A stretch of DNA of 63,568 nt, counting the filler, from Rhabdomonas costata (lineage: Eukaryota), in assembly GCA_019059605.1 (NCBI GenBank). It is 56 parts of 56 records of this genome, joined end to end, with 100 filler letters (N's around TTAATTAATTAA, not from the genome) between each part and the next. Parts side by side here need not be neighbours in the genome. Positions count along the whole stretch, not along the records: positions 32,984 to 34,020 come from JAHMHO010032102.1; 55 more parts are not named here. One strand, 5' to 3'. Every line of letters begins with the position of its first letter. Position 1 is the stretch's first letter. The translations under genes and the position numbers were made by a program. Positions 5,728-62,434 of the stretch are shown one piece after another. The notes under the pieces are model-generated. The model saw nothing but the letters and a program-made list of their open reading frames with translations, was not told where the DNA came from and searched no databases.

Positions 5728-6260
5728 GTTGCTGGATTTTGACAAGAAATTGTGCGAGTTATGCTTTGTACGTTGGTTTTTGGCACAGGAGGAAGATCAA
5801 GAAAGCCCGCTAATGGGAAGCTGGAGAGAGATTCAGAGGCTGCACGCGGAGTCTTGGAAGGTGTGTGTGTTTGTATGTTTGCTTGTGTGTCCATTTGTGA
5901 ATGCGCCTCGGTATGAAAGAGTACCACAAACAAGGAGTTGAGGAGTTGAGGGGAGAGAAGGAAGAAGTAGGGGACGCTTGTGAAAGGGGGGTCCCCACGC
6001 TCTCTGGCCCGTGGTCTTTGTTCGCGTCCTTCCCTTGCAAAGGGTTTCGATTAGTTTGGTTGAACTGAACGCAAACACAAAAATTCTTGATCCTGAATAT
6101 CCTATGGTGGCTTCGCTGGACGGTGTTAATATGTGCAACTTTTTCCTCACAGAGCTGCACCCAAGCCTTGGCCACACGGCCGTACAACCTTCCTGAGCTG
6201 AAAGACCGCCTTCCGGCTCAAACCCCGCTTCCTGTCCATCACTTGCCCAGAACAAAAGCG
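5728..6260 (+). CDS. Hypothetical protein, two candidate exons (5728-5860, 6153-6260)
   Basis: Open frames bounded by AG and GT and joined in phase 0. No family recognised. Confidence 0.35.
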
Positions 6261-6827
6261 GTCTGCCCGTCTGTCATGCGCATGGGGGCAACCCTCGGTG
6301 GAGTGCCTGAAGTTTTCATTTCGCTGCCTGCCTGCCTTTTTTCAGCGTGGAGCCCGTGCAGCTCGCCATGCTGCGGCTGAGTCGGTGTCGTGCTTGTTTA
6401 ATATTATCTCTTGCCGAGCCTTTTTTTTCTTCCGTCGAATGGATTATTGTTATGCCTTGTCTTTGTTGCCCTTTCTTTGGCTATTGTTCTTTTGGTTCTT
6501 TTGGTTAGGAGCAGAAAGTCACCGAAGAAGAGGACCTGCTTCGTATGTGCTGTCTATCAGCTTCCTAAAACGAGCGATGCATTTTGTTGCAAGTTGTAGA
6601 GATACTTGTAAAGTTGTAGAGGTACTTGACCTCACATTTTTTCTGCTGGTTATTCTGTGGAGGTGGCAGGTGGCGATCTTTTGTTTACCGTTTCTCCTTC
6701 CCCGAATACGCCACTCCCCCCCCAACCNNNNNNNNNNNNNNNNNNNNNNNNNNNNNNNNNNNNNNNNNNNNTTAATTAATTAANNNNNNNNNNNNNNNNN
6801 NNNNNNNNNNNNNNNNNNNNNNNNNNN

Positions 6828-7865
6828 TTTGTGTTTGCATTCGTTGTTGTTGGATGCTATGGAAGGGCCAACACCGTTTTCGTCATTGCTGCATTCGGCT
6901 ACGTATTATGTGGTGCTGCAGGGGTTGTGGTTCTGGTGACGGTGGTGGGTGGTGGTGGTACTGGGGTGTGTGATTCGGGGCTGTCGGCGTGTGTGAACTT
7001 GCTTACTTACTTAATTACTGAACTTACCAATGGGTGTGCTTGCTTGTCCAGTTGGTGTCGAGGTGTGGTGTGGGATTGGAGGTGTGGGTGCTATGGAGGG
7101 TGCAGGGGCGTGTGGTTCGTCGTCGGTTAGGTGTGGGTGATGGTTGTCGTGTTGGTCCAGGTGTTTCTTGCGTGATAGTTGTGGGTGTGGTTCATGTACT
7201 CGAAGCTGGCGGTGGCTCTGAGTACGATTGTGCTTGTGGAGTTGATGGTTGTGTGGTTGTGTGAGTTTTCTTTGTTGGGAGGTGTGGATGGTGGGGTGTT
7301 GGCGGTCTGTGCTTCGTTTCCTAGTGGTGCTTCGGTGGTCCATGGCTGTGGGGGTGTCGCGAGTTTGGGCTTGGTGCATTTGTTTGTTCACTTTATTGAT
7401 GGCTTTGTTGTTCATGTGTGTTGGGGTATTGCTGCAGGGTGCTTTGGCTCAGGATGTGCGTATTTTGGCCGGTTGGGTGGGGTTGGGTGTGGTAGGTTGC
7501 GGTTTGTGTCGGCGTGTTTCTTCTTGTACATCTGTGCAATCGCTTATCCATGTGTCTGAGGAGGGAAGTTGTGTAGTGAGGAGTGTGGGGTAGGTTTTGT
7601 GGTGTGGGGTGAGTCGTCGGTTGGAGGCTGATGGTGTGGGATGTGCTAGTGGTGTGCAGTGTTGTGGTTGGTAAGATGGGTGGGTCCAGTGCTGTGTTTT
7701 CCTCGCTTGTGTTCTTCTTCTATGGGTATGTGTTAGGGTTAGGGTTCTGTGTGTGATTCTGTATGTAGTGTAGGGTATGGGGTTGTTGGTAGCGTTGGTG
7801 TTGGTGACACCGTGACACCAACACCCTACGCAACACCAACTGCAGAAAGAACACCAACAACACAC
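6828..7865. other. G/T-skewed low-complexity contig, probable amplification-primer artefact
   Basis: Strong G+T excess up to about 7805, then an abrupt switch to C/A; no coherent ORF. Confidence 0.6.
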
Positions 7866-8403
7866 NNNNNNNNNNNNNNNNNNNNNNNNNNNNNNNNNNN
7901 NNNNNNNNNTTAATTAATTAANNNNNNNNNNNNNNNNNNNNNNNNNNNNNNNNNNNNNNNNNNNNTACGGCAGTACCAAGCCCACGTATCCAACTCCACG
8001 CGTGGCTCAGCGCGCCCCCAAGTGCCGCTTTGGCCTCCTTGTGGACTGACTTCAGTAGTATCTGCCTTCTGCCCTGCGATTACGATTTGGCCGCTTCCCG
8101 GTCTCACGCCACAGACTATATCTCTACGCCGAGACACGAACTTTTCAAGGTCCATTTTGGCGACTTGGGCAGTTCACCAGTCTCAGTTGTCTTTTGGAGC
8201 GCAGAAAGTGTACAAAATGCAATGGCTTGCCCACCACCCACCACCGGTCACAGGAACACACGGATTCCGCTCTCCCCCTCACTGCCAGCCTGCGAGTGTC
8301 TTGCGTGTTTTCTTGTATAACCGCGTTTTTATTCACTGCGGACTTTTGCTTTGTGCATGAACCGGCACTTCCCCTGGTGCAGACGCAAGCCAAAGGGCTG
8401 TGC

Positions 8404-9101: not shown

Positions 9102-10100
9102 TGTGGTTTGGGAAGCCACATGGTCAGGAACGGCCAATGATATCAAACTCTTGCCAGCGTGTCGATCTTGCGGAAGTTGAGACGTGATGTTGGAGGCAGC
9201 TCTATATCTCCTATGATGAAGGTGGAACTTATCCAGGTTAATGGTGCTGGGATCTCAGAGCACCAGAGCCCAGTTTTACCAATGTGAAGCTGCACACAAA
9301 GCCACTTACACCAGCTGTTATATGCGCCCACCAGTAGCTCTACTTTTCTCAAAAAAGTGGAGAGAAAGCACACATTGTCAGCGTAGCTGATGGACTCAAG
9401 ATAGAAGTCGTGCACGCGTATACCCACCTGCTGAGCTCCATCACAGCGGTAAACTGGTTCAAAGATGAGGTTCATGATATAAGGGCTGTACGGGAAGCCC
9501 TTGGCAAGCCCATTGGCCATGGTCCATTTATAACCGTCAACTTGGCCGTACATAAGACGGTGACGAGTGTGGGAATAAAATTACTTGAAGCATCGGATAA
9601 CGGCCGCAGAGATTCAAGTCTAATAAATCAACTCCAAAGACTGCCAACAAATAAATGGAAGGAAAACATTTGATTACATCACGTTTGACGATCCAAAGAG
9701 TTTTTTCTCGCCGCCGCTCGAGCTCAATGGTGTCGGTCAGCAGCTGCTCCATGTGTACGGTGCTGGACTGTGCACCAAAAACACATAACAGAATGACGCA
9801 GATAGAATCCATTCTGTACAGTGGCCAAGAAATGAATATTATCATTGGCCCACGTCCAGCGCCGTAATGAAACGTTGGTCCTGGGGAAGAGTACCACCAA
9901 AGGCCTTCAAAATCATGGCGACATATGCCCGAAGCATCTAGTCCGGACAGTGCCCATATTTTTCCACAATATTAAAGAGTTCTCGTGCATAATCATTCCA
10001 TCATGGACTCCTACAAGCGACTCACCCAATCCACTAGCTCCTCAAATTGTGTGGGATACACAAGTATAGCACTACGTTTGCAGTGGTGGGACTCAGCTCC
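9102..10100 (-). mobile_element. Decayed non-LTR (LINE) retrotransposon reverse transcriptase
   Basis: RT motifs LWIVKRDVIKCFPSI, GLAKGFPYSPYIMNL and SYADNV, split over frames by frameshifts. Confidence 0.85.
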
Positions 10101-10239: not shown

Positions 10240-11271
10240 GGTGGGTGATCTGTAACATCGGCCTCCTCTTCCAGTGTATCCTCGACCTCTGAACGCCAAC
10301 ATTCCTCTGGATGGAGTCACCCTCCTCTCTGGACAAGGCGTACGCGTCGCATTAAATTGTGGCTGTGGAGTGGCGGAAAACATTACTGAACTCGCCGGAA
10401 CTGTGACTGCTAACGTTGGCGGTGTCGCCATTTCAAACAAATTTGCACTTCTCTGCACCGCACTTACGTTAACCATACCTCTGGATACTGTGGAAGGTGC
10501 ACCGCTGACATTTCTCTCTGTAGAGGTTAGAAAGGCCGTACTCCCCGAGAAAGGAGTGTATCCATAACGTATGGCATCTAAATCCATTGCCGCACCCCCC
10601 GTTGTGATTCGATTCTTCGCCATCACTTTGGCCTGGATGTCCCCTTCCAAACCTCTGACATACAGATGCTGCAAACGATTTTCGTTGTCAAACTTCGTCC
10701 CCTTCATCAGATTCATCCAGGTCACAAACTGCTGATGGTAGAATTGGAAATTACACTCCGATATTTTTAATTGCTCCAACCTCCGCACTACATTGTAGTC
10801 CCACGTATGTGCACACAGCCGCCTCTTCAACGTCTCTACAAACTCTTTCCAGTCTGTAAAGACTTCACCTGGCGCAACAATTCCTCTGGAATGTGCACCC
10901 AAGGCGCCTGTGGCATAAGTAATTGCAACTTGATCTGGAAGCCTGCAAAAGTCCTTCAGCTCTTCTACCGACACAAGCCACGGTAGGAAATTAGCTAGGT
11001 TTCCATCGTACTTCTGAAACTATGGAGCTTTCTCCTGCAATTTCCGCAATGCTCCAAGCGCCTCTGGAACTGTGGAACCTCCTCCACTCTGTAAACCTTC
11101 CGCTGATGGTCCAGCCACCACTCTCCGCAGCAACTCCTGTGTAAGATCGTGATTGGCCCGCTGCTGCTGCTACATGCTCTGGAAAAAGGATACCACTTTG
11201 GTTAAAAACGTCTGCTCTATCTGTGGTTCAGAGGCTGCGCTTGACTTAGGAGGTGGCGGATTTCCTGACAT
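10240..11271 (-). mobile_element. Ty3/gypsy-type gag, pseudogenised
   Basis: KYDGN..FLPWL, DWKEFVETLKRR, YVRGLEGDIQ, MDLD motif, then RGRG...CY (start of a zinc knuckle). Two in-frame TAG stops in the N-terminal part. Confidence 0.8.
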
Positions 11272-15926: not shown

Positions 15927-16963
15927 AAACCAACGATTCAGAATCCAATTCCGATATCGGAGAGACCTGAACCGACCAAACCACTCTTTGATACTCCAAC
16001 CCACCAATATAATCACAAAAGTGAACTTCTCGAGCCTCGAGCATCGCGCAACGGTCACTAGTGTAACGGCTTCTCCCCAAAAAAAAATATTATGAGCACC
16101 ACGCCGTGAGCAGCGTTCGCAGCGCGAAAAATTGCTTTCATTCTCCTTTGTGAAAGTGTTTCTTCCTAAGTTCCGCTGGCACCTCCACCCTTCGACCCTG
16201 AGAGCAGTGGCGCCCCCCCTCAAGCCCCAACGCGCCTGGTTGGGAAAGCTAAGGCCCTCCGGGCACTCGTCGTACAGCATTCGCAGGGTGGTGAGGCAAT
16301 CGGAGATCCGCTCGTTGTTCTGCTGCCCGCTAAACGCCGCGTTGTCGTCCACGTCGCACAGAATGTGGTCGCTGAGGATGAAGAACCGCGCCGCCATCTC
16401 CGTCACCTTCACCCGGGCCTCGGAGATGACCGATTGTACGCTGAACTCCTGGTCAGATGGAAAGCAACAAGCAAAGACGGGCGGGGAAGACCATTAATCA
16501 GATGTCGTCAGGTGGCGCTAGAAGCGGTGGGCTGAATTTTCAGGCTCGCAAACAACAACCACGCTCCAGATTTCATGTATTGAGAGATTTCCTGACACCA
16601 TTCACCCCTGGGCTTCCACTTTTCGATGGGGGCTTGTTGGTCCTGCGTGCCTTGTCTCTCTCTTGTCACGAAGCTTTCCCCATGTAAATCCGACCCACAG
16701 TGTACGTGGGGTCTTGGGAACCCCGACTGGGGCGTTCACAGGTCTCATTATGGGTTCGCGCTCGCACACTGCCGCCCACACACCACGGAGCCAGTGACAT
16801 CTCGGTCGTTCAGTGCACTTCACTCATATTAAAATGAAACCAACGATTCAGAATCCAATTCCGATATCGGAGAGACCTGAACCGACCAAACCACTCTTTG
16901 ATACTCCAACCCACCAATATAATCACAAAAGTGAACTTCTCGAGCCTCGAGCATCGCGCAACG
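15927..16963 (+). repeat. Exact 127-bp terminal direct repeat (15927-16053 and 16837-16963)
   Basis: The first and last 127 bases of the contig are identical, as expected for a k=127 assembly-graph loop. Confidence 0.92.
16236..16448 (-). CDS. SAC3/GANP-family protein, internal exon
   Basis: EFSVQ...KVTEMAARFFILSDHILC...FSGQQNNERISDCLTTLRMLYDE...FPNQ matches the SAC3/GANP domain. ccag| acceptor and GC donor; 71 codons. Confidence 0.8.
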
Positions 16964-27298: not shown

Positions 27299-27720
27299 TG
27301 AACTACGGATTCCACCCTGTTTTTTTTGGTGATGTACCAGATGCTACCGACCCGGAGCAGTTCTACGCAGACAGAGAGCAAGAGACAGTCAAGGAGTTTG
27401 TGAAGCGTTTGAAACAAGGTTGGAAAGACATTCAGGCCGCCTTTGAAAAGAACCAAGAAAGCATGGTAGCTCAAGCCAACCGAAAACGACGGGACTACGA
27501 GTTCCGCGTAGGCGATCTGGTACTGGTCAACCAGACCAAACATCAGCGAGCCTACATGGGCCCCCGTTCACCCTTGTCACCGAGAGCAGTCGGACCGTTC
27601 CGATTGAAAAGGTAATGAGCCGCACGTCCATGCGTCTCGAAATCCCCTTCGAAATCATTGGACACGAGACCCCTGTCTTTCCACACCAGCCAACTCATTC
27701 CCTACCAGGCACGGATCCTG
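27299..27720 (+). mobile_element. Ty3/gypsy integrase C-terminal (GPY/F) region, decayed
   Basis: QESMVAQANRKRRDYEFRVGDLVLV...LSPRAVGPFR...FHTSQLIPY, with frameshifts. Confidence 0.85.
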
Positions 27721-31740: not shown

Positions 31741-33210
31741 CCCACCNNNNNNNNNNNNNNNNNNNNNNNNNNNNNNNNNNNNNNNNNNNNTTAATTAATT
31801 AANNNNNNNNNNNNNNNNNNNNNNNNNNNNNNNNNNNNNNNNNNNNTGTGTTTTGGTAGGGCCGTCCTCCGAGGGGTCGTAATGCGTGCGATGAGGTAGG
31901 GAATTGACAAAGACAGGGGAACGGTTGAGGTGGGCGATTGAGGCTGGGCGGAGGTGTGTGGCATATACTTCAGAGAGTGTAAGAGAGTGAGTGTGGGAGG
32001 GATTTAGCGAGAGCGGAAGGATGGAGAGTAGGGCGGGTGTTTATGGGAGTCGGAAGGTCATTTAGCTGTTTGGTTGGGAATCAAGGATAGGGTTCTACCG
32101 CGCATTGGGTCTTCTGTTTTTCAGCTTACTGGGAGGCGAGTGGTGCTCCCGTCTATGCGGGGCGGCGGCGGTGGTGGGGTCCGGGCTAGGTTCCCCGCTT
32201 GGTTTCTTCGGCGTGGCTTACCGTTCACTTCACTTCACTTCAGTCCCAAGGCAATGGAGGCGAGGAGGGGGAGGGAGGGAGCTCCCATCTACCGTGGCTC
32301 CTGTCTTTTTCATTCTGTGATGTGGGTTGGGCTCAGACTCTGCGCACACAGGACGCGCTCAGGTGGCACCAGGCCTGAGGGCGTCCACCCGTCCCCGCCC
32401 CCTTCTGCTCTTTTTTCTAGTCCCACCTTCACCCTCTCCTTCTCACACATCCATGTCTTTAGGTGCCGAGGGCTTCCCCTCGCCGAGCAAATGCTTTTTC
32501 TGAGATCTCTCTCCTAGCGCGCTCTCCTCTTTGGAGGGAGAATCAACCTCCCCCACTCATTTAGGTCACTTCCGTAGGAGCGCCTTCCCCCCGTAATAGC
32601 GTAGTGTTCTGAAGTTGTGTGTATGGGGGAGACGGGGCGATAGGGGCGCCTGGTGCCGCTGAGCGGTTGGAGGTGTGGCGGCCGTTTCTCACCCGAGCCT
32701 CTCACTTTCTGGGGAGGGGGTGACCCGCAGCCACAGCCCACGGGCTGCCCAGCCCACTGCCTGCGCCCACACACACATACACATACCTTCACGGGGGGGC
32801 TCTTCTCTCTCGTCCGCTTCCCCGCTCCCAACCCCTTTCTTGGGCTTTTTCGCGCTCCCTTCTTCATCGGTTGACCCCACAAANNNNNNNNNNNNNNNNN
32901 NNNNNNNNNNNNNNNNNNNNNNNNNNNTTAATTAATTAANNNNNNNNNNNNNNNNNNNNNNNNNNNNNNNNNNNNNNNNNNNNGGTTGGTGTGTTTGGTT
33001 GTGGGGTGTCCCTCAGTGCAGCAATACCTTGAGTGTCCGTAAAATGCACCGTAAATGGGGGGGGGGGGATCCCATAATATCCATATGCAATTCGTCACCG
33101 CTTTGTTTTACCCTGGCCTGTGCTCCGATCGAACCGCGCGTTCAGCCCTTCTTTCTCTCTGGTTGTGTGTATGTGCCTTGCTTTTTAATTCTCCCCTCCC
33201 CTGCCCTTAG

Positions 33211-34020
33211 CGGCGCCCAAGAAGGCGAAGAAGGACAGCGCTGCAACCGCCGCAGCAATCGGTAGCGCCGCGGTGCCCCGGATCAACATCGGGGTGTTTG
33301 GGCTAATGAACAGCGGGAAGTCCACCCTGGTCAACTGCATCACCCGTCAGGAGACCTCCATTGTCGACAGGTTTGCGCTGCCCCCTTGGGAGTTGGGCGG
33401 GTGGCCGTGGTGGATGGAGTGTTGGTAACGCAGGCACTGGCCTGGTCTGATGGTTCTCCTTTGCTGGATGTATGTCTGTGAGTTTTTATGTTTGTGTGCA
33501 ATGTGTCCAGCAAGCCAGGCACAACGGCCGATGTAAAGATCGCGCTGATGGAGATTCACGGTCTGGGACCGTGCAAGCTCTTTGACACGGCGGGCGTCGA
33601 CGAGGAGGGTACCCTGGGGCAGAAGAAGCTGGTCAAGGTGTGCCTTCCGTGGGAAACTCCTCTCTCCTTCATCCCCCCATAAGAACCACTCCCACCACTC
33701 TCACCCTTGTTGTTGTTGCACTCCCGCCACTCTACAACATTTCCAGCGTTCACCTCTCGCTATGCATCGATAACCGTAGAGCTTGAAATTTTTTTGCGCA
33801 ACCTCTTACGTCTGATCAAGGGTTCCTCCCTGTTTTGCTTAATTCCATTTAGAAGCAATTGACTCAGGACTGGCTTCCTAAAATTAACTAAACGTGTCCC
33901 ACTGCTCCGCCAAAACCCCGTTTTTCCCTCTTACAGGCTCAGAACGTGCTGAAGGAGAGCGACCTGGCGCTGCTGGTTGTGGACCCCGCACGCACACCGA
34001 CGGCGGCACAGCTGGCGACG
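33211..34020 (+). CDS. hydF: [FeFe]-hydrogenase H-cluster maturation GTPase HydF (possibly a HydEF fusion), three exons (33211-33370, 33511-33637, 33937-34020)
   Basis: Spliced product: [112 protein letters not shown]. It has G1, G2 and G3 motifs plus the HydF-type LGP..L.DTAG.D..G.LG.K. Two GT..AG introns with consistent phase. Confidence 0.85.
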
Positions 34021-37000
34021 NNNNNNNNNNNNNNNNNNNNNNNNNNNNNNNNNNNNNNNNNNNNTTAATTAATTAANNNNNNNNNNNNNNNNNNNNNNNN
34101 NNNNNNNNNNNNNNNNNNNNTTAGGATGGAGCCGGCAGTGGGCGCAATTGGCGGCATGTGTGGCAATGACATGTATGAAGTGTTTTCCATCATGGCCCCA
34201 GCGCCCAATGGGCCATTGCCGTTTTCTTGTGTCTCTAAACACAGATCCCCCCCCCATTGTCCCCTTTTGCTGTGCGCATTGGTTTCCGGACTTCTCCGAG
34301 CTTCGCCAATGTTTCGAGGAAAATGGGGGAGGCGTTCTCGCACGAGATCTTTTCGGAGTCTTGTTGTTTGGGCGACTTTTGCGGCTGGAGTGTCTCTCTT
34401 GCTGCTGCTACTTACGCCGTGGGCTTTGGCCGTCCACCGCAGACCCTCGAGATGTGTGAAGGGCAGGGGTCAGCAGCGCGGAGCCGATGGCTGGAGCACA
34501 TCAGAGCTGTGCCGTAGACTCCGGAGCCATCCTGTGGACTCCCGGAATGAGGCAGGCCGGTCGGGGCATTCTCCCATTCGGCTCCACGGCCCCTCGCCCT
34601 CTCTCTCCCGAAGCCACACCGACACGGTTGTCCACGGTTCTTAAGGGTAGTGAGAGCGGTGACGGCGATTTCTTTACCAATAACCGTGATGTGGACCATG
34701 CACACTGCAGTGTTGCGAGAGTTTTCTGTCATAGTGAACTGAGCATCTGAAACTTCGCGAGCCAATTGAAATCAACGAGTGTTAATTTGTTCCCAGGGCA
34801 GAGGTGCGGACGTCAGCTGCCACTAGGACACCACTGTCGCCTCGTGTGCTCGTGCAGCGTTTCGGCGAACTCAACCCATTGATCTCGTGCGTGTCCCTTC
34901 AGAACTTGTCTGCCCTCCTGGGCTTTTCTGATGCAGGATTCTTAGAAAGAGGAGCTGGTTGGCGGTTGATTGAATCGGCAGGTGGTGAGCGAAGCTCAGT
35001 GACCCGCCGCGACACATCCCCCCCGCCGGTCCTTGAAGTCCTGGAATCCCAGGAGGCGGAGACCCAAGCTCGGCAGCCCTTGGCCCCCCTTCTGCTACTT
35101 TGGGAAGCCCTGGAACGCTTACTTCTCCCCTACAAACCTGCGCCCTCCAACCCCACNNNNNNNNNNNNNNNNNNNNNNNNNNNNNNNNNNNNNNNNNNNN
35201 TTAATTAATTAANNNNNNNNNNNNNNNNNNNNNNNNNNNNNNNNNNNNNNNNNNNNGGGGGGTTGGGTAGGCCTGGCTTTGCCGTTTATTGTGTTTGATG
35301 TTACCCTACTGCTGCGTGCAGCAAAGATGGGCTCGCTTTCAATATCTGTGGAAGCTCAAGGACTTCCCTTCTTTGTTTTTCAAAAAGCAGTCTTCTCACA
35401 TTTGATCCAATGGTTCTCGAAATACGGCAGCACGCGTGCAGTGGATTTCCTTTTTCTGCGCAGCTGCGGCTGTTAGCATTAACCGGTGGAGCTGATTATA
35501 ATATATGCTGAGACTTGTGCTTTAGAGGCGTGGGCCTCCTAGTTTTATTCGACACGTTGTCCGTCTCTCCCATGAGAATACTTTCGCCGTTGCTTGAATC
35601 CGCGTCCATCGTGAGCCCTTTTCTTTTTCTTTTTCTTTTTCTTTTTCATGGAAAGTCGGTCGCCTTGTCTTCCCCGTTAGACATGGAAGTTTGACCGCGA
35701 CATGTTGGCTGACCCCCAGAAGCTCTCGCTGCGCGGAAGTCCTTCCCCACAAAAGAGCGAGGCCCCAGTCCCGTCTCCGACGAGCGTTTGGGCAGCCTTG
35801 GCACACAACCAGGAGACCCAGCCCGTGCCCGATAATAGCCTCGCCCCTAGAATGGGCAGCCTGGTACAGTGATGAACGTGGCGAGACGCTCCCGCACCAG
35901 CACCCGAACCGCTATATGTGTATAGGAGCACGTATATGTTGGTTTAAGGTAAATGTCGTACGTTGATTGGTGGAGCTGGGGGAGGAGCTGCTCCTCTGAC
36001 TGACGGCGAATTTGCTCTTCCATTCCTCGTAAAGAACTTTAGGCTGGCAGCTAGCGACGGAAACTAGCACAGGGGTGCTTATTTAGTTTGTTTTTCCCCA
36101 ATAATCGCTTCTTTCTGTGAGTTTTGATCTCATTCTTTGCTGTTTCATGAGACTCCCTTTAGTGTGTTCACTGTTCACACATGCTCCAATGCCGGGGAGG
36201 GATTGCCTTCCGCGCCGCTTTGCATCGTGTGTTACCCACACAAAGACCCCCTGCAGAGGCGGAGTTCCGACCGGTGCCTGCGCTTTTCTCATCNNNNNNN
36301 NNNNNNNNNNNNNNNNNNNNNNNNNNNNNNNNNNNNNTTAATTAATTAANNNNNNNNNNNNNNNNNNNNNNNNNNNNNNNNNNNNNNNNNNNNGGTGGGT
36401 TGTTGGCGTTAAACGTTTAACAGCCCCCCCCCCTAAAAAAATGCAGCAGCTCAACGTCAGGTGAAGGGCTTTGCAGGCAGTTTTGCATGCACTGGACCAC
36501 TGAGCATTGATATCATCCGTCTAATTATCATTGAACGTATTCTCTTTTTGTATTGTATTAAAAGTTCCACTGCTTATTTTTCGATGCTTGATCATTTGAG
36601 TGTGCCTCTAATCTTTGTCTCCGTGGTGTTTCGGTTTGACGGAATACCACTGGGTTTTTTCGGATTTCTTTTTTGCTCCTGGGTTGACGGGTTCGTGTTT
36701 ACTACAGATTGTCCTTCCTGACTTTCCTCTCTGTTCCCTTCTCTTTTCCGACTCATTGCTGTAACCCTGAACCCTGTTTGTTTGCATTGCACTTCTTACC
36801 TTTCTTCGCTGCATCTGCTGGTCTTTCCAGCATTGTTTGGGGGAGGGGCGTGCGCCTCTTACCCCACCATTCCGAATCCCTTGCAAAATCCTGTCCCTTC
36901 TGCTCCACCACCTCTCTTCCCACTTCGGTGGGAGATGTCTCGGGAGATTCCCTCGTTTCCATTGGGTCACGGGGGCCTTCCCGAGGTGGCGAGCGCACAC

Positions 37001-50387: not shown

Positions 50388-50804
50388 ATGCTTCGCTTCC
50401 CCGCCCCTGTGGGCACACTGTTGCTTCTGATCTCCCTTCTTGGGTTGACTCACGGGCGGATCTTCGGAGACAACACCCCAAGTGATGACAGCGCTCATAT
50501 CCCCGTGAACCACCACGCCACGATCCGTCGCATCAACGCCGAGCTGCGCCCCTCGTGGGTGGCCAAGCCCCAGCCCCGCTTCGAGGGCATGACCCTGGCG
50601 CAGGCCCGCGACCTGTGCGGGTTCCGGCCCCTGCCCCTCGACCACGAGGCCTACACCACCGCGGCAATGGTTCACGCCGGGTTGGACCGCCACAAGCCTG
50701 CCCGGGAGATTCCCGTGATGGAGGACGATGACATCCCGGCAACGTTCGACTCTCGCGAGCAGTGGGCGAGCTGCGCGGGTGTCATTGGCCACATCCGAGA
50801 CCAG
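50388..50804 (+). CDS. CTSB: Cathepsin B-like cysteine protease, first coding exon (signal peptide, propeptide, start of mature enzyme)
   Basis: Hydrophobic signal; propeptide IRRIN...WVA...RF.GMT...LCG; mature IPATFDSREQWASCAGVIGHIRDQ|gt. Confidence 0.88.
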
Positions 50805-50863
50805 GTCCGTCTTCCCACCCCATGCAGGGCCGACCTTTTTCGTGACTGCAGAAATTTGCAAAA

Positions 50864-58710: not shown

Positions 58711-59023
58711 TGTGAGTGATCATGGGCTTCAAGAAGTCCGGTACGGTCAACACCTGGTACTTCAGCAGCCTGACATTCAGTGTCTGAAACGCCTGCTATT
58801 GAGCTTCGCCTCAAACACACTCACTGTGCTTCTTCATCAGCTCATTCAACGGCGCATCTACCGTTAAATAATCCGGCACAAACATCCGGTATAACCCGCA
58901 CAGTCCTAAGAAACTCTTCACGTCGACCGGGTTCCTCAGCTTCGGCCACACATACATGGCCATTAGTTTCTTTGGCTGGGGTCTGATCCCATTACTCACA
59001 ATGATGAACCAGCAATACCACAC
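58711..59023 (-). mobile_element. Ty3/gypsy RT thumb/connection fragment, decayed
   Basis: GIRPQPKK...WP...DVKSFLGLCGLYRMFVPDY...APLNELMKK...QAFQTL...VLTVPDF, with stops. Confidence 0.85.
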
Positions 59024-61297: not shown

Positions 61298-61402
61298 NNN
61301 NNNNNNNNNNNNNNNNNNNNNNNNNNNNNNNNNNNNNNNNNTTAATTAATTAANNNNNNNNNNNNNNNNNNNNNNNNNNNNNNNNNNNNNNNNNNNNGTT
61401 TG

Positions 61403-61494
61403 TTTGTTTCAAATTCAGATAGTTCAAACGTCTCTAAAAGTTGTATCTGAGAACCATTTTTAGAGACGTTTGAACTATCTGAATTTGAAACAAA
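61403..61494. repeat. 37-bp perfect hairpin with an 18-nt loop (61403-61439 and 61458-61494)
   Basis: Exact reverse-complement arms. Confidence 0.9.
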
Positions 61495-61549
61495 TAAAGA
61501 TATCACGCATATATTACAATCAGATATTTTTTATTATAGTATTATATAA

Positions 61550-62150
61550 ATGGGTTTTATTACTGATAATACTTCTAGTGGTGAAGAATAAATCACTTAT
61601 TTACAAAAACTAAAAGATTGTCAAATAGGAGCTCCATCTGATGGTCAGTCTCTTGTTTTCAGTGCTGGAAAATGGATTAATGGAACCGGTAGTGGTGGAG
61701 GTACTGGATCATCTACATTATCTGGTCTTACATATGTATCTTTGACAGGTCTTACACCAAGTCAAATATTAAGATACGATGGTAGTAAATGGGTAAATTC
61801 AAATGCTGCTATGACATTATCTGCTCTAATAGATGTTAGTATGTCTTCAGTTCATGATAAACAAATGTTAAAATATGCTTTACATCTGGTCAATTTGCAA
61901 GATAATATTGATTATGGTTCAGCTGTTCTATTTAATGGCTTATATTGGAATTTAACATCATTACAAAATGGATTAGGTTTTAATATTGATAATTACGGTT
62001 CTAATTCTGTATCTGATTATAACGCGACTACAAGACCTTCAGCATCATCAACATTAATAGATTTAAATTATGGTGTATTGGATTCCACAAAATCGTCCAT
62101 AATCTTGCCTGCATCAACAGCATATCGATATCTAATTATTTATTTATGGT
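61550..62150 (+). pseudogene. AT-rich, intronless virus-like fibre/structural protein remnant
   Basis: MGFITDNTSSGEE*ITYLQKLKDCQIGAPSDGQSLVFSAGKWIN...TLSGLTYVSLTGLTPSQILRYDGSKWVN...TLSALIDVSMSSVHDKQMLKY has three copies of L..L.DV......(G)Q.L.Y...W.N. In-frame TAA at 61589; codons end in A/T. Confidence 0.6.
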
Positions 62151-62434
62151 TCTTACATTCTCGTACATTCTCCCCGATCTTCCCCAAAATCCGACACCAG
62201 CTGAGCTTTTTGCCCACCAAACGTCCGTGGATTATTTGAAGCGCTGCCGCCGCGTCTTCAAGACGTTTAGGTTTGAGTTCTCATTCGAGGATGTCCGGCA
62301 TGACTACTTCGTGGATGAGTGGTGTCCGGCATGGTTCTCCGACGCTCTGGACTACCTGGGCGTGAGGGCCTACGATGGGACCGGGACCCTCTGTGTGCAT
62401 GAATTGCGGTGGAGGATCAAACAGCCTCACCACC
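62150..62434 (+). CDS. GC-rich hypothetical ORF fragment next to the viral remnant
   Basis: Open frame ILPDLPQNPTPAELFAHQ...HDYFVDEWCPAWFSDALDYLGVRAYDG with high GC at third positions. Confidence 0.35.

What the first reader, a model, noticed from the sequence alone, without database searches (positions are those of the whole stretch)
33211..34020. Intron-containing [FeFe]-hydrogenase maturase HydF/HydEF in a protist nuclear genome
Seen: three phase-consistent spliced exons encode a complete G1-G3 GTPase with [22 protein letters not shown] and LGP.KL.DTAG.DE.G.LG.KK. Known: this pattern is typical of HydF, especially the HydF half of the green-algal HydEF fusion. HydF works with HydE and HydG to build the H-cluster and is patchy in eukaryotes. 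Spliceosomal introns rule out bacterial contamination. Inference: the organism may make H2 anaerobically. The K/A-rich linker after an upstream acceptor suggests an N-terminal HydE domain or targeting peptide. If the host is a euglenid, this would be notable.
Basis: partly seen in the sequence, partly recalled or inferred. Interest (0 to 1): 0.78.

Follow-up and report, generated by a model that had tools for sequence, protein, structure and literature searches.

The report
Intron-split HydF hydrogenase maturase gene fragment
A one-kilobase piece of a eukaryotic genome carries the first three surviving exons of HydF, a helper protein that builds the metal centre of hydrogen-producing enzymes; this kind of gene is already known in many protists and algae, so the find is real but modest.

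Summary
The finding lies on a 1,037-nt contig (32984-34020), one of 56 short contigs chained by N/TTAATTAATTAA linkers. Three GT-AG exons (33211-33370, 33511-33637, 33937-34020) sit in three different frames and join without any indel relative to homologues.

Exons 1 and 2 score best against NCBIfam HydF (31.5 and 41.3 bits; next families 25.9 and 12.0). The spliced 123-aa peptide keeps all 25 covered invariant HydF columns.

Its nearest relative is an unnamed environmental 1,033-aa HydE-HydF fusion, P0009 (75% over 114 aa; sister at 100/99 support). Both sit in a clade holding Vitrella, Chromera, Paulinella and green-algal HydEF. A fused gene here is therefore likely (about 0.6) but not shown. 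The HydE part, the G4 motif and the Fe-S motif all lie off the contig.

No genome or reads were available. The host lineage, hydA/hydG and H2 production remain untested, and the euglenid idea has neither support nor refutation. Verdict: a new member of a known kind, of modest interest.

The parts
32984..33210 (+). Start of the contig. It is non-coding-looking sequence ending in a pyrimidine-rich tract and an AG acceptor at 33209-33210, and is presumably the 3' end of an upstream intron.
   Evidence: An in-frame stop lies at 33186-33188 and there is no in-frame ATG before G1. tblastn with HydEF proteins found no HydE-like piece here.
33211..33370 (+). Exon A: a K/A-rich linker or presequence tail followed by the G1 P-loop (GLMNSGKS) of HydF.
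   Evidence: TIGR03918 31.5 bits, E 8.4e-08, model positions 6-35. PF01926 24.3 bits; tblastn hits.
33371..33510 (+). Intron 1: 140 nt, GT..AG, phase 2.
   Evidence: The junction restores the ..IVD-S-KPG.. stretch with no indel against homologues.
33511..33637 (+). Exon B: the G2 (PGTTAD) and G3 (DTAG) region. This is the most HydF-specific part.
   Evidence: TIGR03918 41.3 bits, E 8.3e-11, model positions 39-77; the next family scores 12.0 bits; 83-86% identity to eukaryotic HydF/HydEF; 3 of 3 PDB hits are 3qq5, 5kh0 and 5lad.
33638..33936 (+). Intron 2: 299 nt, GT..AG, phase 0, with a pyrimidine-rich 3' end.
33937..34020 (+). Exon C: the strand after G3 (..LKESDL..LLVVDP..). It is cut by the contig end before G4.
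   Evidence: tblastn against P0009 gives 83% over 18 aa; no family hit on its own at 28 aa.
34021..34120 (.). Artificial joiner (N44-TTAATTAATTAA-N44). What follows is an unrelated contig.

Best explanation
The contig holds the 5'-proximal part of a nuclear gene for the [FeFe]-hydrogenase maturase HydF, interrupted by spliceosomal introns. It covers the first half of the GTPase domain (G1-G3).

Function, by established knowledge of the pathway: HydF is the GTP-binding scaffold on which the radical-SAM enzymes HydG and HydE assemble the 2Fe subcluster. HydF then hands that subcluster to apo-HydA.

Family placement: the gene belongs to the eukaryotic HydF clade, and within it to the subclade whose members are nearly all HydE-HydF fusions (green algae, Vitrella, Paulinella). 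Its sister is an unnamed environmental 1,033-aa HydEF, P0009.

Shown: the exon structure, the HydF identity of the fragment, its eukaryotic origin and the sister relation.

Inferred:
- The missing upstream exon(s) encode HydE (about 0.6) rather than only an organelle presequence (about 0.35).
- The missing downstream exons carry the dimerisation and CxH...HCxxC Fe-S domains.
- The host has HydA and HydG and can mature a hydrogenase.
For: Family scores. Exon A: HydF 31.5 bits, against Der 25.9, Era 21.7 and MnmE 17.7. Exon B: HydF 41.3 bits, against MnmE 12.0 and Der 10.9. The two matches are colinear on the model.

Database search with exon B. 16 of 18 candidates passed E<=0.01. All those with full domains carry HydF Pfam domains (PF18128/PF18133). 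The best are 83-86% identical.

BLASTP of the spliced peptide. P0009 is best at 74.6% over 114 aa and 168 bits. Fungal HydF gives 72.5% over 91 aa. Bacterial HydF gives 51-61%.

Conserved residues. 25 of 26 columns invariant in 14 eukaryotic HydFs are kept. The 26th falls where our row has a gap near the contig end.

Nearest relative. P0009 matches HydE at 285.1 bits (cut-off 254.6) and HydF across model positions 7-386.

Careful IQ-TREE, 58 rows x 466 columns. Ours + P0009 has 100/99 support, inside a 24-row clade at 98/96. In that clade 21 of the 23 other rows have 250 aa or more upstream of G1.

Quick tree without the 20 linker residues. The same pair has SH-aLRT 99 and the 24-row clade 100.

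Gene structure. GT-AG borders, three frames, no indels at the junctions.

Composition. The contig's trinucleotide make-up is typical of the window: rank 45 of 56 by distance from the centroid.
Against: Only 123 of roughly 450 HydF residues are on the contig. G4, the dimer domain and the Fe-S motif are unseen, so a truncated or decaying gene cannot be excluded.

The summed exon scores (about 73 bits) are far below NCBIfam's whole-protein cut-off of 325.55. Full-length eukaryotic HydFs also fall below it: 307.2, 249.8 and 242.2 bits.

Exon A alone is not HydF-specific in the PDB search. Its 44 hits are generic P-loop GTPases and ATPases led by mt-EngA, and no HydF chain was listed.

FastTree on 110 rows left our row unresolved. 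It sat outside the fused clade, in a polytomy.

The AU test did not reject forcing our row together with the unfused fungal/glaucophyte group: p 0.085, lnL difference 24.75.

No HydE-like sequence lies in the 227 nt upstream. The K/A-rich stretch is compositional only, and PMC3897525 (passages read) reports no conserved HYDEF linker among algae.

The window also holds a contig with a phage-tail-fibre-like ORF. The assembly is therefore not pure, and host assignment of any one 1-kb contig is unsure.
Confidence: 0.82

Rival explanations
1. The gene is an unfused HydF. On this reading the upstream exon(s) encode only a mitochondrial, hydrogenosomal or plastid targeting peptide, as in anaerobic fungi, Pelomyxa, Willaertia and Gloeochaete.
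For: Unfused eukaryotic HydFs have 15-57 aa before G1, and the fungal ones have a Lys-rich stretch there. Fungal HydF is nearly as similar as P0009 over the G domain (72.5% over 91 aa). The AU test does not reject grouping with the fungal/glaucophyte clade (p 0.085). Chromera P0056, in the same 24-row clade, has only 53 aa upstream.
Against: The sister relation to the fused P0009 has 100/99 support and survives removal of the linker. 21 of the 23 other rows in the clade have 250 aa or more upstream. Of the two exceptions, P0031 belongs to a 90% cluster that also holds a 1,031-aa member.
Confidence: 0.35
2. The contig comes from a co-sampled eukaryote (prey, an alga or a contaminant) and not from the organism that dominates the assembly. 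It would then say nothing about the nominal host.
For: Each contig is only about 1 kb and unlinked. At least one contig in the window looks foreign: 61398-62434 has 37% GC and phage tail-fibre-like hits. No genome or reads could be consulted.
Against: The contig's trinucleotide composition is ordinary for the window (rank 45 of 56). Its exon GC3 (0.79-0.83) and pyrimidine-rich non-coding style resemble other coding pieces in the window, whose GC3 is 0.67-0.78. Both tests are weak at this length.
Confidence: 0.2
3. The fragment is a non-functional remnant (pseudogene) of HydF in an organism that no longer has a hydrogenase.
For: Only a fragment is visible. No relative closer than 86% identity was returned by the one search run for it: exon B, proteins of 75-2000 aa only, 18 candidates that shared short words with the query. 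This is consistent with low or no expression, or simply with an unsampled organism.
Against: All three exons are open. All 25 covered invariant residues are kept. The splice sites are canonical, and codon GC3 is high like the other coding pieces.
Confidence: 0.1
4. The fragment belongs to another TrmE-Era-EngA-type GTPase (MnmE, Der/EngA or Era), not to HydF.
For: Exon A's P-loop region also matches Der (25.9 bits) and Era (21.7 bits). Its PDB hits are generic GTPases.
Against: Exon B scores 41.3 bits for HydF against at most 12.0 for any other family. Its only PDB hits are the three chains 3qq5, 5kh0 and 5lad. All close database relatives carry HydF-specific domains. The tree places it deep inside HydF.
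Confidence: 0.02

Closest known systems
   Same: It is 74.6% identical over 114 aa of the spliced peptide, and 80% over 98 G-domain columns. It is the sister in the trees at 100/99 and 99 support. It shares GLMNSGKS in G1 and a K/G/A-rich stretch before G1.
   Different: P0009 is full length, with HydE (285.1 bits) plus a complete HydF. Only 123 residues of our gene are visible. A 20-25% difference means a different species or lineage. The organism is unknown for both.
Green-algal HYDEF (Chlamydomonas, Volvox, Chlorella, Tetraselmis), and the HydEF of Vitrella brassicaformis and Paulinella micropora
   Same: They fall in the same 24-row clade (98/96) and are 57-75% identical over the fragment. 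Fusion of HYDE and HYDF is documented in PMC8003979 Table 4 and in PMC3897525 (passages read).
   Different: Our row and P0009 lie outside the 20-row subclade (96/94) that holds Paulinella and the named green algae. The HydF part of P0009 is only 48-49% identical to the best of them.
Unfused eukaryotic HydF of anaerobic fungi (Piromyces, Neocallimastix) and of protists (Pelomyxa, Willaertia, Anaeramoeba, Aduncisulcus, Gloeochaete)
   Same: The fungal proteins are 86% identical in exon B and 72.5% over 91 aa. All belong to the same eukaryote-wide HydF clade.
   Different: They are separate genes with short presequences and branch outside the fused clade. The AU test does not strictly exclude kinship, however.
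Bacterial HydF with solved structures (PDB 3qq5, 5kh0, 5lad). That these entries are HydF is recalled; the depositors' names are 'Small GTP-binding protein' and 'Putative GTP-binding protein'.
   Same: They are the only PDB sequences matched by exon B, at E 0.0002-0.002. The G2/G3 layout is the same.
   Different: They are distant in sequence, have no introns and no fusion.

Membership tests
HydF (NCBIfam TIGR03918) | HydF is the best-scoring family model, with a clear margin over MnmE, Der and Era. | tested here: met
   Exon A: 31.5 bits against 25.9, 21.7 and 17.7. Exon B: 41.3 bits against 12.0 and 10.9. The matches are colinear at model positions 6-35 and 39-77.
HydF (NCBIfam TIGR03918) | The whole-protein score reaches the curated cut-off (325.55 bits). 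| tested here: inconclusive
   Only a fragment is available, about 73 bits summed. Bona fide eukaryotic HydFs also fall below the cut-off: P0004 307.2, P0009 249.8 and P0017 242.2 bits.
HydF (NCBIfam TIGR03918) | N-terminal GTPase motifs G1 (GxxxxGKS/T), G2 (Thr) and G3 (DxxG). | tested here: met
   [14 protein letters not shown] and DTAG are present. 25 of the 25 covered invariant columns are kept.
HydF (NCBIfam TIGR03918) | G4 motif ([NT]KxD). | not testable with these tools
   It lies beyond the contig end at 34020. No genome or reads are available.
HydF (NCBIfam TIGR03918) | Dimerisation domain (PF18128) and the C-terminal Fe-S domain (PF18133) with CxH...HCxxC. | not testable with these tools
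   It is off the contig. It is present and invariant in relatives (C385, H387, H437, C438 and C441 of alignment A1).
HydF (NCBIfam TIGR03918) | HydA, HydE and HydG are present in the same genome. | not testable with these tools
   No genome is held. Within the window, tblastn with HydE- and HydG-containing proteins found nothing besides the HydF exons. HydA was not searched.
HydEF fusion (HydE radical-SAM domain fused N-terminally to HydF) | A HydE domain in the same reading frame upstream of the HydF G domain. | not testable with these tools
   Exon A starts at an acceptor with no in-frame ATG, so an upstream exon exists. The 227 nt upstream hold no HydE-like sequence.
HydEF fusion (HydE radical-SAM domain fused N-terminally to HydF) | Phylogenetic position inside the clade of fused proteins. 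| tested here: met
   sister of the fused P0009, inside the 24-row clade. Caveats: FastTree left the row unresolved and the AU test gave p 0.085 for one alternative.
MnmE / Der (EngA) / Era | The family's own model is the best match. | tested here: not met
   all score below HydF on both exons. Exon B gives at most 12.0 bits.

The most novel reading that the evidence does not exclude
The contig truly belongs to a host lineage in which no [FeFe]-hydrogenase system has been described, for instance a euglenid. PMC10407231 (passages read) found no HYDA and barely detectable H2 in Euglena gracilis. Together with the environmental P0009, the gene would then mark an unsampled, deep-branching eukaryotic HydEF lineage. 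That would point either to a hidden hydrogenase or to a maturase with another client.
Probability: 0.12. Interest if true: 0.7.

Novelty: new member of a known kind. Interest (0 to 1): 0.3.

Why it matters
HydE, HydF and HydG are patchily spread among eukaryotes, and they mark the ability to mature an H2-producing [FeFe]-hydrogenase. This fragment and its environmental sister P0009 form a lineage only about 48% identical to the next fused HydEF proteins. They sit beside chromerids, Paulinella and green algae. That adds a data point to two open questions: how often the HydE-HydF fusion arose or was passed between algal and protist lineages, and which organisms can make H2 under anoxia. Because only 123 residues and no host identity are available, the present value is that of a lead, not a result.

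Tried and rejected
Own genome search: none is held.

Earlier findings: nothing by place or by sequence. A search by words returned only a Naegleria HydF note from another genome.

Rfam on the whole window: 0 matches, so no RNA marker for the host.

Host identification through another gene: a papain-family-like exon (50388-50846) gave no hit among 564 candidates. Pfam found no family for it. Atlas scores reached only 0.88, which is a lead at most.

Metagenome scan with exon A: 9 loci, all distant (44-62% over 26-43 residues), none a close relative. A first try with exon B was too short for the tool.

MnmE, Era or Der identity: rejected on the scores.

A HydE remnant upstream on the contig: not found.

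FastTree with 110 rows gave no resolved position. It was superseded by the site-heterogeneous IQ-TREE runs.

Literature: searches for HydEF+Euglena (7 papers), HydF+Euglen (14 papers), HydEF+Vitrella (1 paper) and two broader ones. In the passages I read (PMC10407231, PMC3660698, PMC8003979, PMC12924338, PMC3785491, PMC3897525), no euglenid HydF is reported. Supplementary tables and trees of these papers were not available and could hold more taxa.

Full report
WHAT THE WINDOW IS. The 63,568-nt window is not one locus. It is a chain of 56 contigs of 1,033-1,038 nt, each pair separated by N44-TTAATTAATTAA-N44. The finding lies on one such contig, 32984-34020. Everything beyond those borders is unrelated sequence. 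All conclusions therefore rest on 1,037 bases plus comparison with public proteins.

THE OBSERVATION.
- Exon A is 33211-33370 and is preceded by a pyrimidine tract and an AG.
- Intron 1 is 33371-33510 (140 nt, GT..AG, phase 2).
- Exon B is 33511-33637.
- Intron 2 is 33638-33936 (299 nt, GT..AG, phase 0).
- Exon C is 33937-34020 and runs off the contig.

The blocks lie in three different frames, and reading through either donor meets a stop within 19 or 14 codons. Exon GC3 is 0.79-0.83, while the introns are 48-55% GC. Joined at these borders, the 123-aa peptide aligns to homologues without any gap at either junction. The G1 (GLMNSGKS), G2 (PGTTAD) and G3 (DTAG) motifs are there. G4 would lie past the contig end. 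There is no in-frame ATG before G1, and a stop lies 22 nt upstream of the acceptor. At least one further 5' exon must therefore exist.

IDENTITY.
- NCBIfam. Exon A scores best to HydF TIGR03918 (31.5 bits, E 8.4e-08, model 6-35), ahead of Der 25.9, Era 21.7 and MnmE 17.7. Exon B scores 41.3 bits to HydF (E 8.3e-11, model 39-77), with only MnmE 12.0 and Der 10.9 behind it. Exon C (28 aa) hits nothing.
- Pfam sees only the generic MMR_HSR1 GTPase domain.
- PDB. Exon B matches three sequences and no others: 3qq5, 5kh0 and 5lad. I recall these as HydF structures. Exon A matches only generic P-loop proteins, so the specificity rests on exon B.
- Word-indexed search with exon B, longer proteins. 16 of 18 candidates passed. 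The best were Neocallimastigomycota HydF at 86%, and a 1,033-aa protein with radical-SAM plus HydF domains (P0009) at 83%.
- tblastn of eight HydF/HydEF proteins against the whole window. Only these exons were hit at E below 1, in colinear order: three HSPs for 5 of 8 queries (a sixth, P0041, had its third at E 1.1), two for P0023 and one for the bacterial P0014.
- Conserved columns. Of 26 columns invariant in 14 eukaryotic HydFs within our span, 25 are kept. The last coincides with a gap at the truncated end.

RELATIVES AND PLACEMENT. BLASTP of the spliced peptide (made inside the script box only) against all 212 fetched proteins ranks them as follows:
- P0009 first, at 74.6% over 114 aa and 168 bits.
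- Fungal HydF, at 72.5% over 91 aa.
- Several unnamed fused proteins.
- Pedinophyceae at 64.5% and Vitrella at 59.5%.
- Bacterial HydF at 51-61%.

P0009 is a genuine fusion: HydE scores 285.1 bits (cut-off 254.6) and HydF covers model positions 7-386. Its HydF half is only 48-49% identical to the next fused proteins, which are Vitrella, Pedinophyceae and chlorophytes (57 proteins at E<=1e-5 among 7,998 scored). An exhaustive profile search found 583 proteins at E<=1e-30, with about 40 scoring above 350 bits before the scores fall to the 250-300 bits of the rest of the list, which I took to be bacterial (no names are given there). Names could be recovered for some of the high scorers: Gloeochaete, Aduncisulcus, Pelomyxa, Willaertia, Anaeramoeba and Paulinella micropora.

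TREES. From the 212 proteins I kept the 177 that hit our peptide and had 370-620 residues from the aligned start. For FastTree I used all 86 with ids below P0114 plus every fourth of the rest (23), giving 110 rows with ours. That tree left our row unresolved, outside the fused clade.

A hand-picked set of 57 proteins plus ours was then analysed with IQ-TREE LG+C20+F+G4 (careful, 466 columns):
- Ours + P0009 has 100/99 support.
- The pair sits inside a 24-row clade at 98/96, together with Chromera, Vitrella and a 20-row group at 96/94.
- That 20-row group holds Paulinella micropora and the green algae, and it excludes our pair.
- 21 of the other 23 rows in the 24-row clade carry 250 residues or more upstream of G1. 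The exceptions are Chromera P0056 and P0031. P0031's 90% cluster also holds a 1,031-aa member.

Removing the 20 linker residues did not change this: SH-aLRT 99 for the pair and 100 for the clade, with 80% identity to P0009 over 98 columns. Against this, an AU test did not reject forcing our row into the fungal/glaucophyte group (p 0.085, lnL difference 24.75).

FUSION OR NOT. The phylogeny makes a HydE-HydF fusion the more likely architecture, at about 0.6 on my estimate. The K/A-rich stretch before G1 resembles P0009's linker only in composition. Unfused fungal HydFs also have Lys-rich residues there, and PMC3897525 (passages read) found no conserved linker among algal HYDEF. No HydE-like coding sequence lies in the 227 nt upstream.

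HOST. Nothing in the calls names the host.
- A papain-family-like exon elsewhere in the window (50388-50806; a poly-T/AG lies about 20 nt before its ATG) had no database hit.
- Rfam found nothing.
- The HydF contig's trinucleotide make-up is ordinary for the window (rank 45 of 56). That mildly favours its belonging to the main organism.
- The window also holds a 37%-GC contig with phage-tail-fibre-like hits, so foreign DNA is present in the assembly.
- No protein above 86% identity to exon B was returned (proteins of 75-2000 aa only, 18 word-sharing candidates scored). This organism's HydF is therefore probably not in the reference or transcriptome sources searched.
- The euglenid idea is neither supported nor refuted. 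PMC10407231 (passages) reports no HYDA and barely detectable H2 in Euglena gracilis, which would make a euglenid HydEF puzzling.

COMPARISON WITH WHAT IS KNOWN, AND VERDICT. Eukaryotic HydE/F/G and the HYDEF fusion are well documented:
- PMC8003979 Table 4 shows the fusion in Chlamydomonas, Chlorella, Tetraselmis and Vitrella, and separate genes in Cyanophora and Nannochloropsis.
- PMC12924338 states that core chlorophytes have one set of maturases, usually predicted to be mitochondrial.
- PMC3785491 describes Acanthamoeba HydF in mitochondria.

The present fragment is thus a new member of a known kind. Its modest novelty is the distinct lineage it forms with P0009. Function (a GTPase scaffold for the 2Fe subcluster), fusion, a complete C-terminus, partner genes and H2 production are all inferences that need the rest of the gene and the genome.

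Noticed in passing
window 1-63568: The window is an artificial chain of 56 contigs of about 1,037 nt joined by N44-TTAATTAATTAA-N44 (six-frame stop) linkers. Neighbouring features are therefore not linked in the genome.
   Followed up: yes
window 61398-62434: A compositional outlier at 37% GC and the farthest from the window centroid. It carries a 215-aa ORF (61592-62236, +) that matches phrog_9627 (E 5.1e-11) and a tail-fibre PHROG (E 6.5e-06). This is probably phage or bacterial DNA in the assembly.
   Followed up: partly
window 50388-50806 (+): An ATG-initiated exon with a hydrophobic leader and a papain-family (C1) propeptide-like region. This is my own reading; Atlas scores of 0.88 are only a lead and Pfam had no hit. 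Its donor is GTCCGT. A poly-T tract plus AG lies about 20 nt before the ATG, as at a trans-splice or 5'-UTR acceptor. No database relative was found.
   Followed up: partly
window 15927-16493 (-): An exon with a SAC3/GANP domain (PF03399, 50.3 bits), which marks an ordinary eukaryotic nuclear gene.
   Followed up: no
window 10240-11019 (-), 27301-27612 (+), 9146-9580 (-), 58814-59023 (-): Fragments of Ty3/gypsy-like retroelements. The first three give weak hits below Pfam cut-offs (Ty3 capsid-like, Tf2-1 SH3 and RVT_1). The fourth had no Pfam hit and is my own reading of the sequence. They suggest a repeat-rich genome.
   Followed up: no
window 6828-7865: A contig with strong strand asymmetry (GC skew 0.25 and AT skew -0.38 in the 6001-8000 bin). 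It is the second most atypical in trinucleotide make-up and looks like low-complexity repeat.
   Followed up: no
proteins P0070 and P0071 (857-861 aa): These proteins have a HydF-type G domain at the N-terminus plus radical-SAM and BATS domains, and one is named '2-iminoacetate synthase'. That is a HydF-HydG-type fusion, a different fusion order from HydEF.
   Followed up: no
protein P0035: Paulinella micropora (Rhizaria) has a 998-aa fused HydEF that branches at the base of the green-algal group. The fusion is thus spread across at least three supergroups.
   Followed up: partly
proteins P0004, P0009 and P0017: Full-length eukaryotic HydFs score 242-307 bits, below NCBIfam's HydF cut-off of 325.55. 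Cut-off-based annotation would therefore miss them.
   Followed up: no
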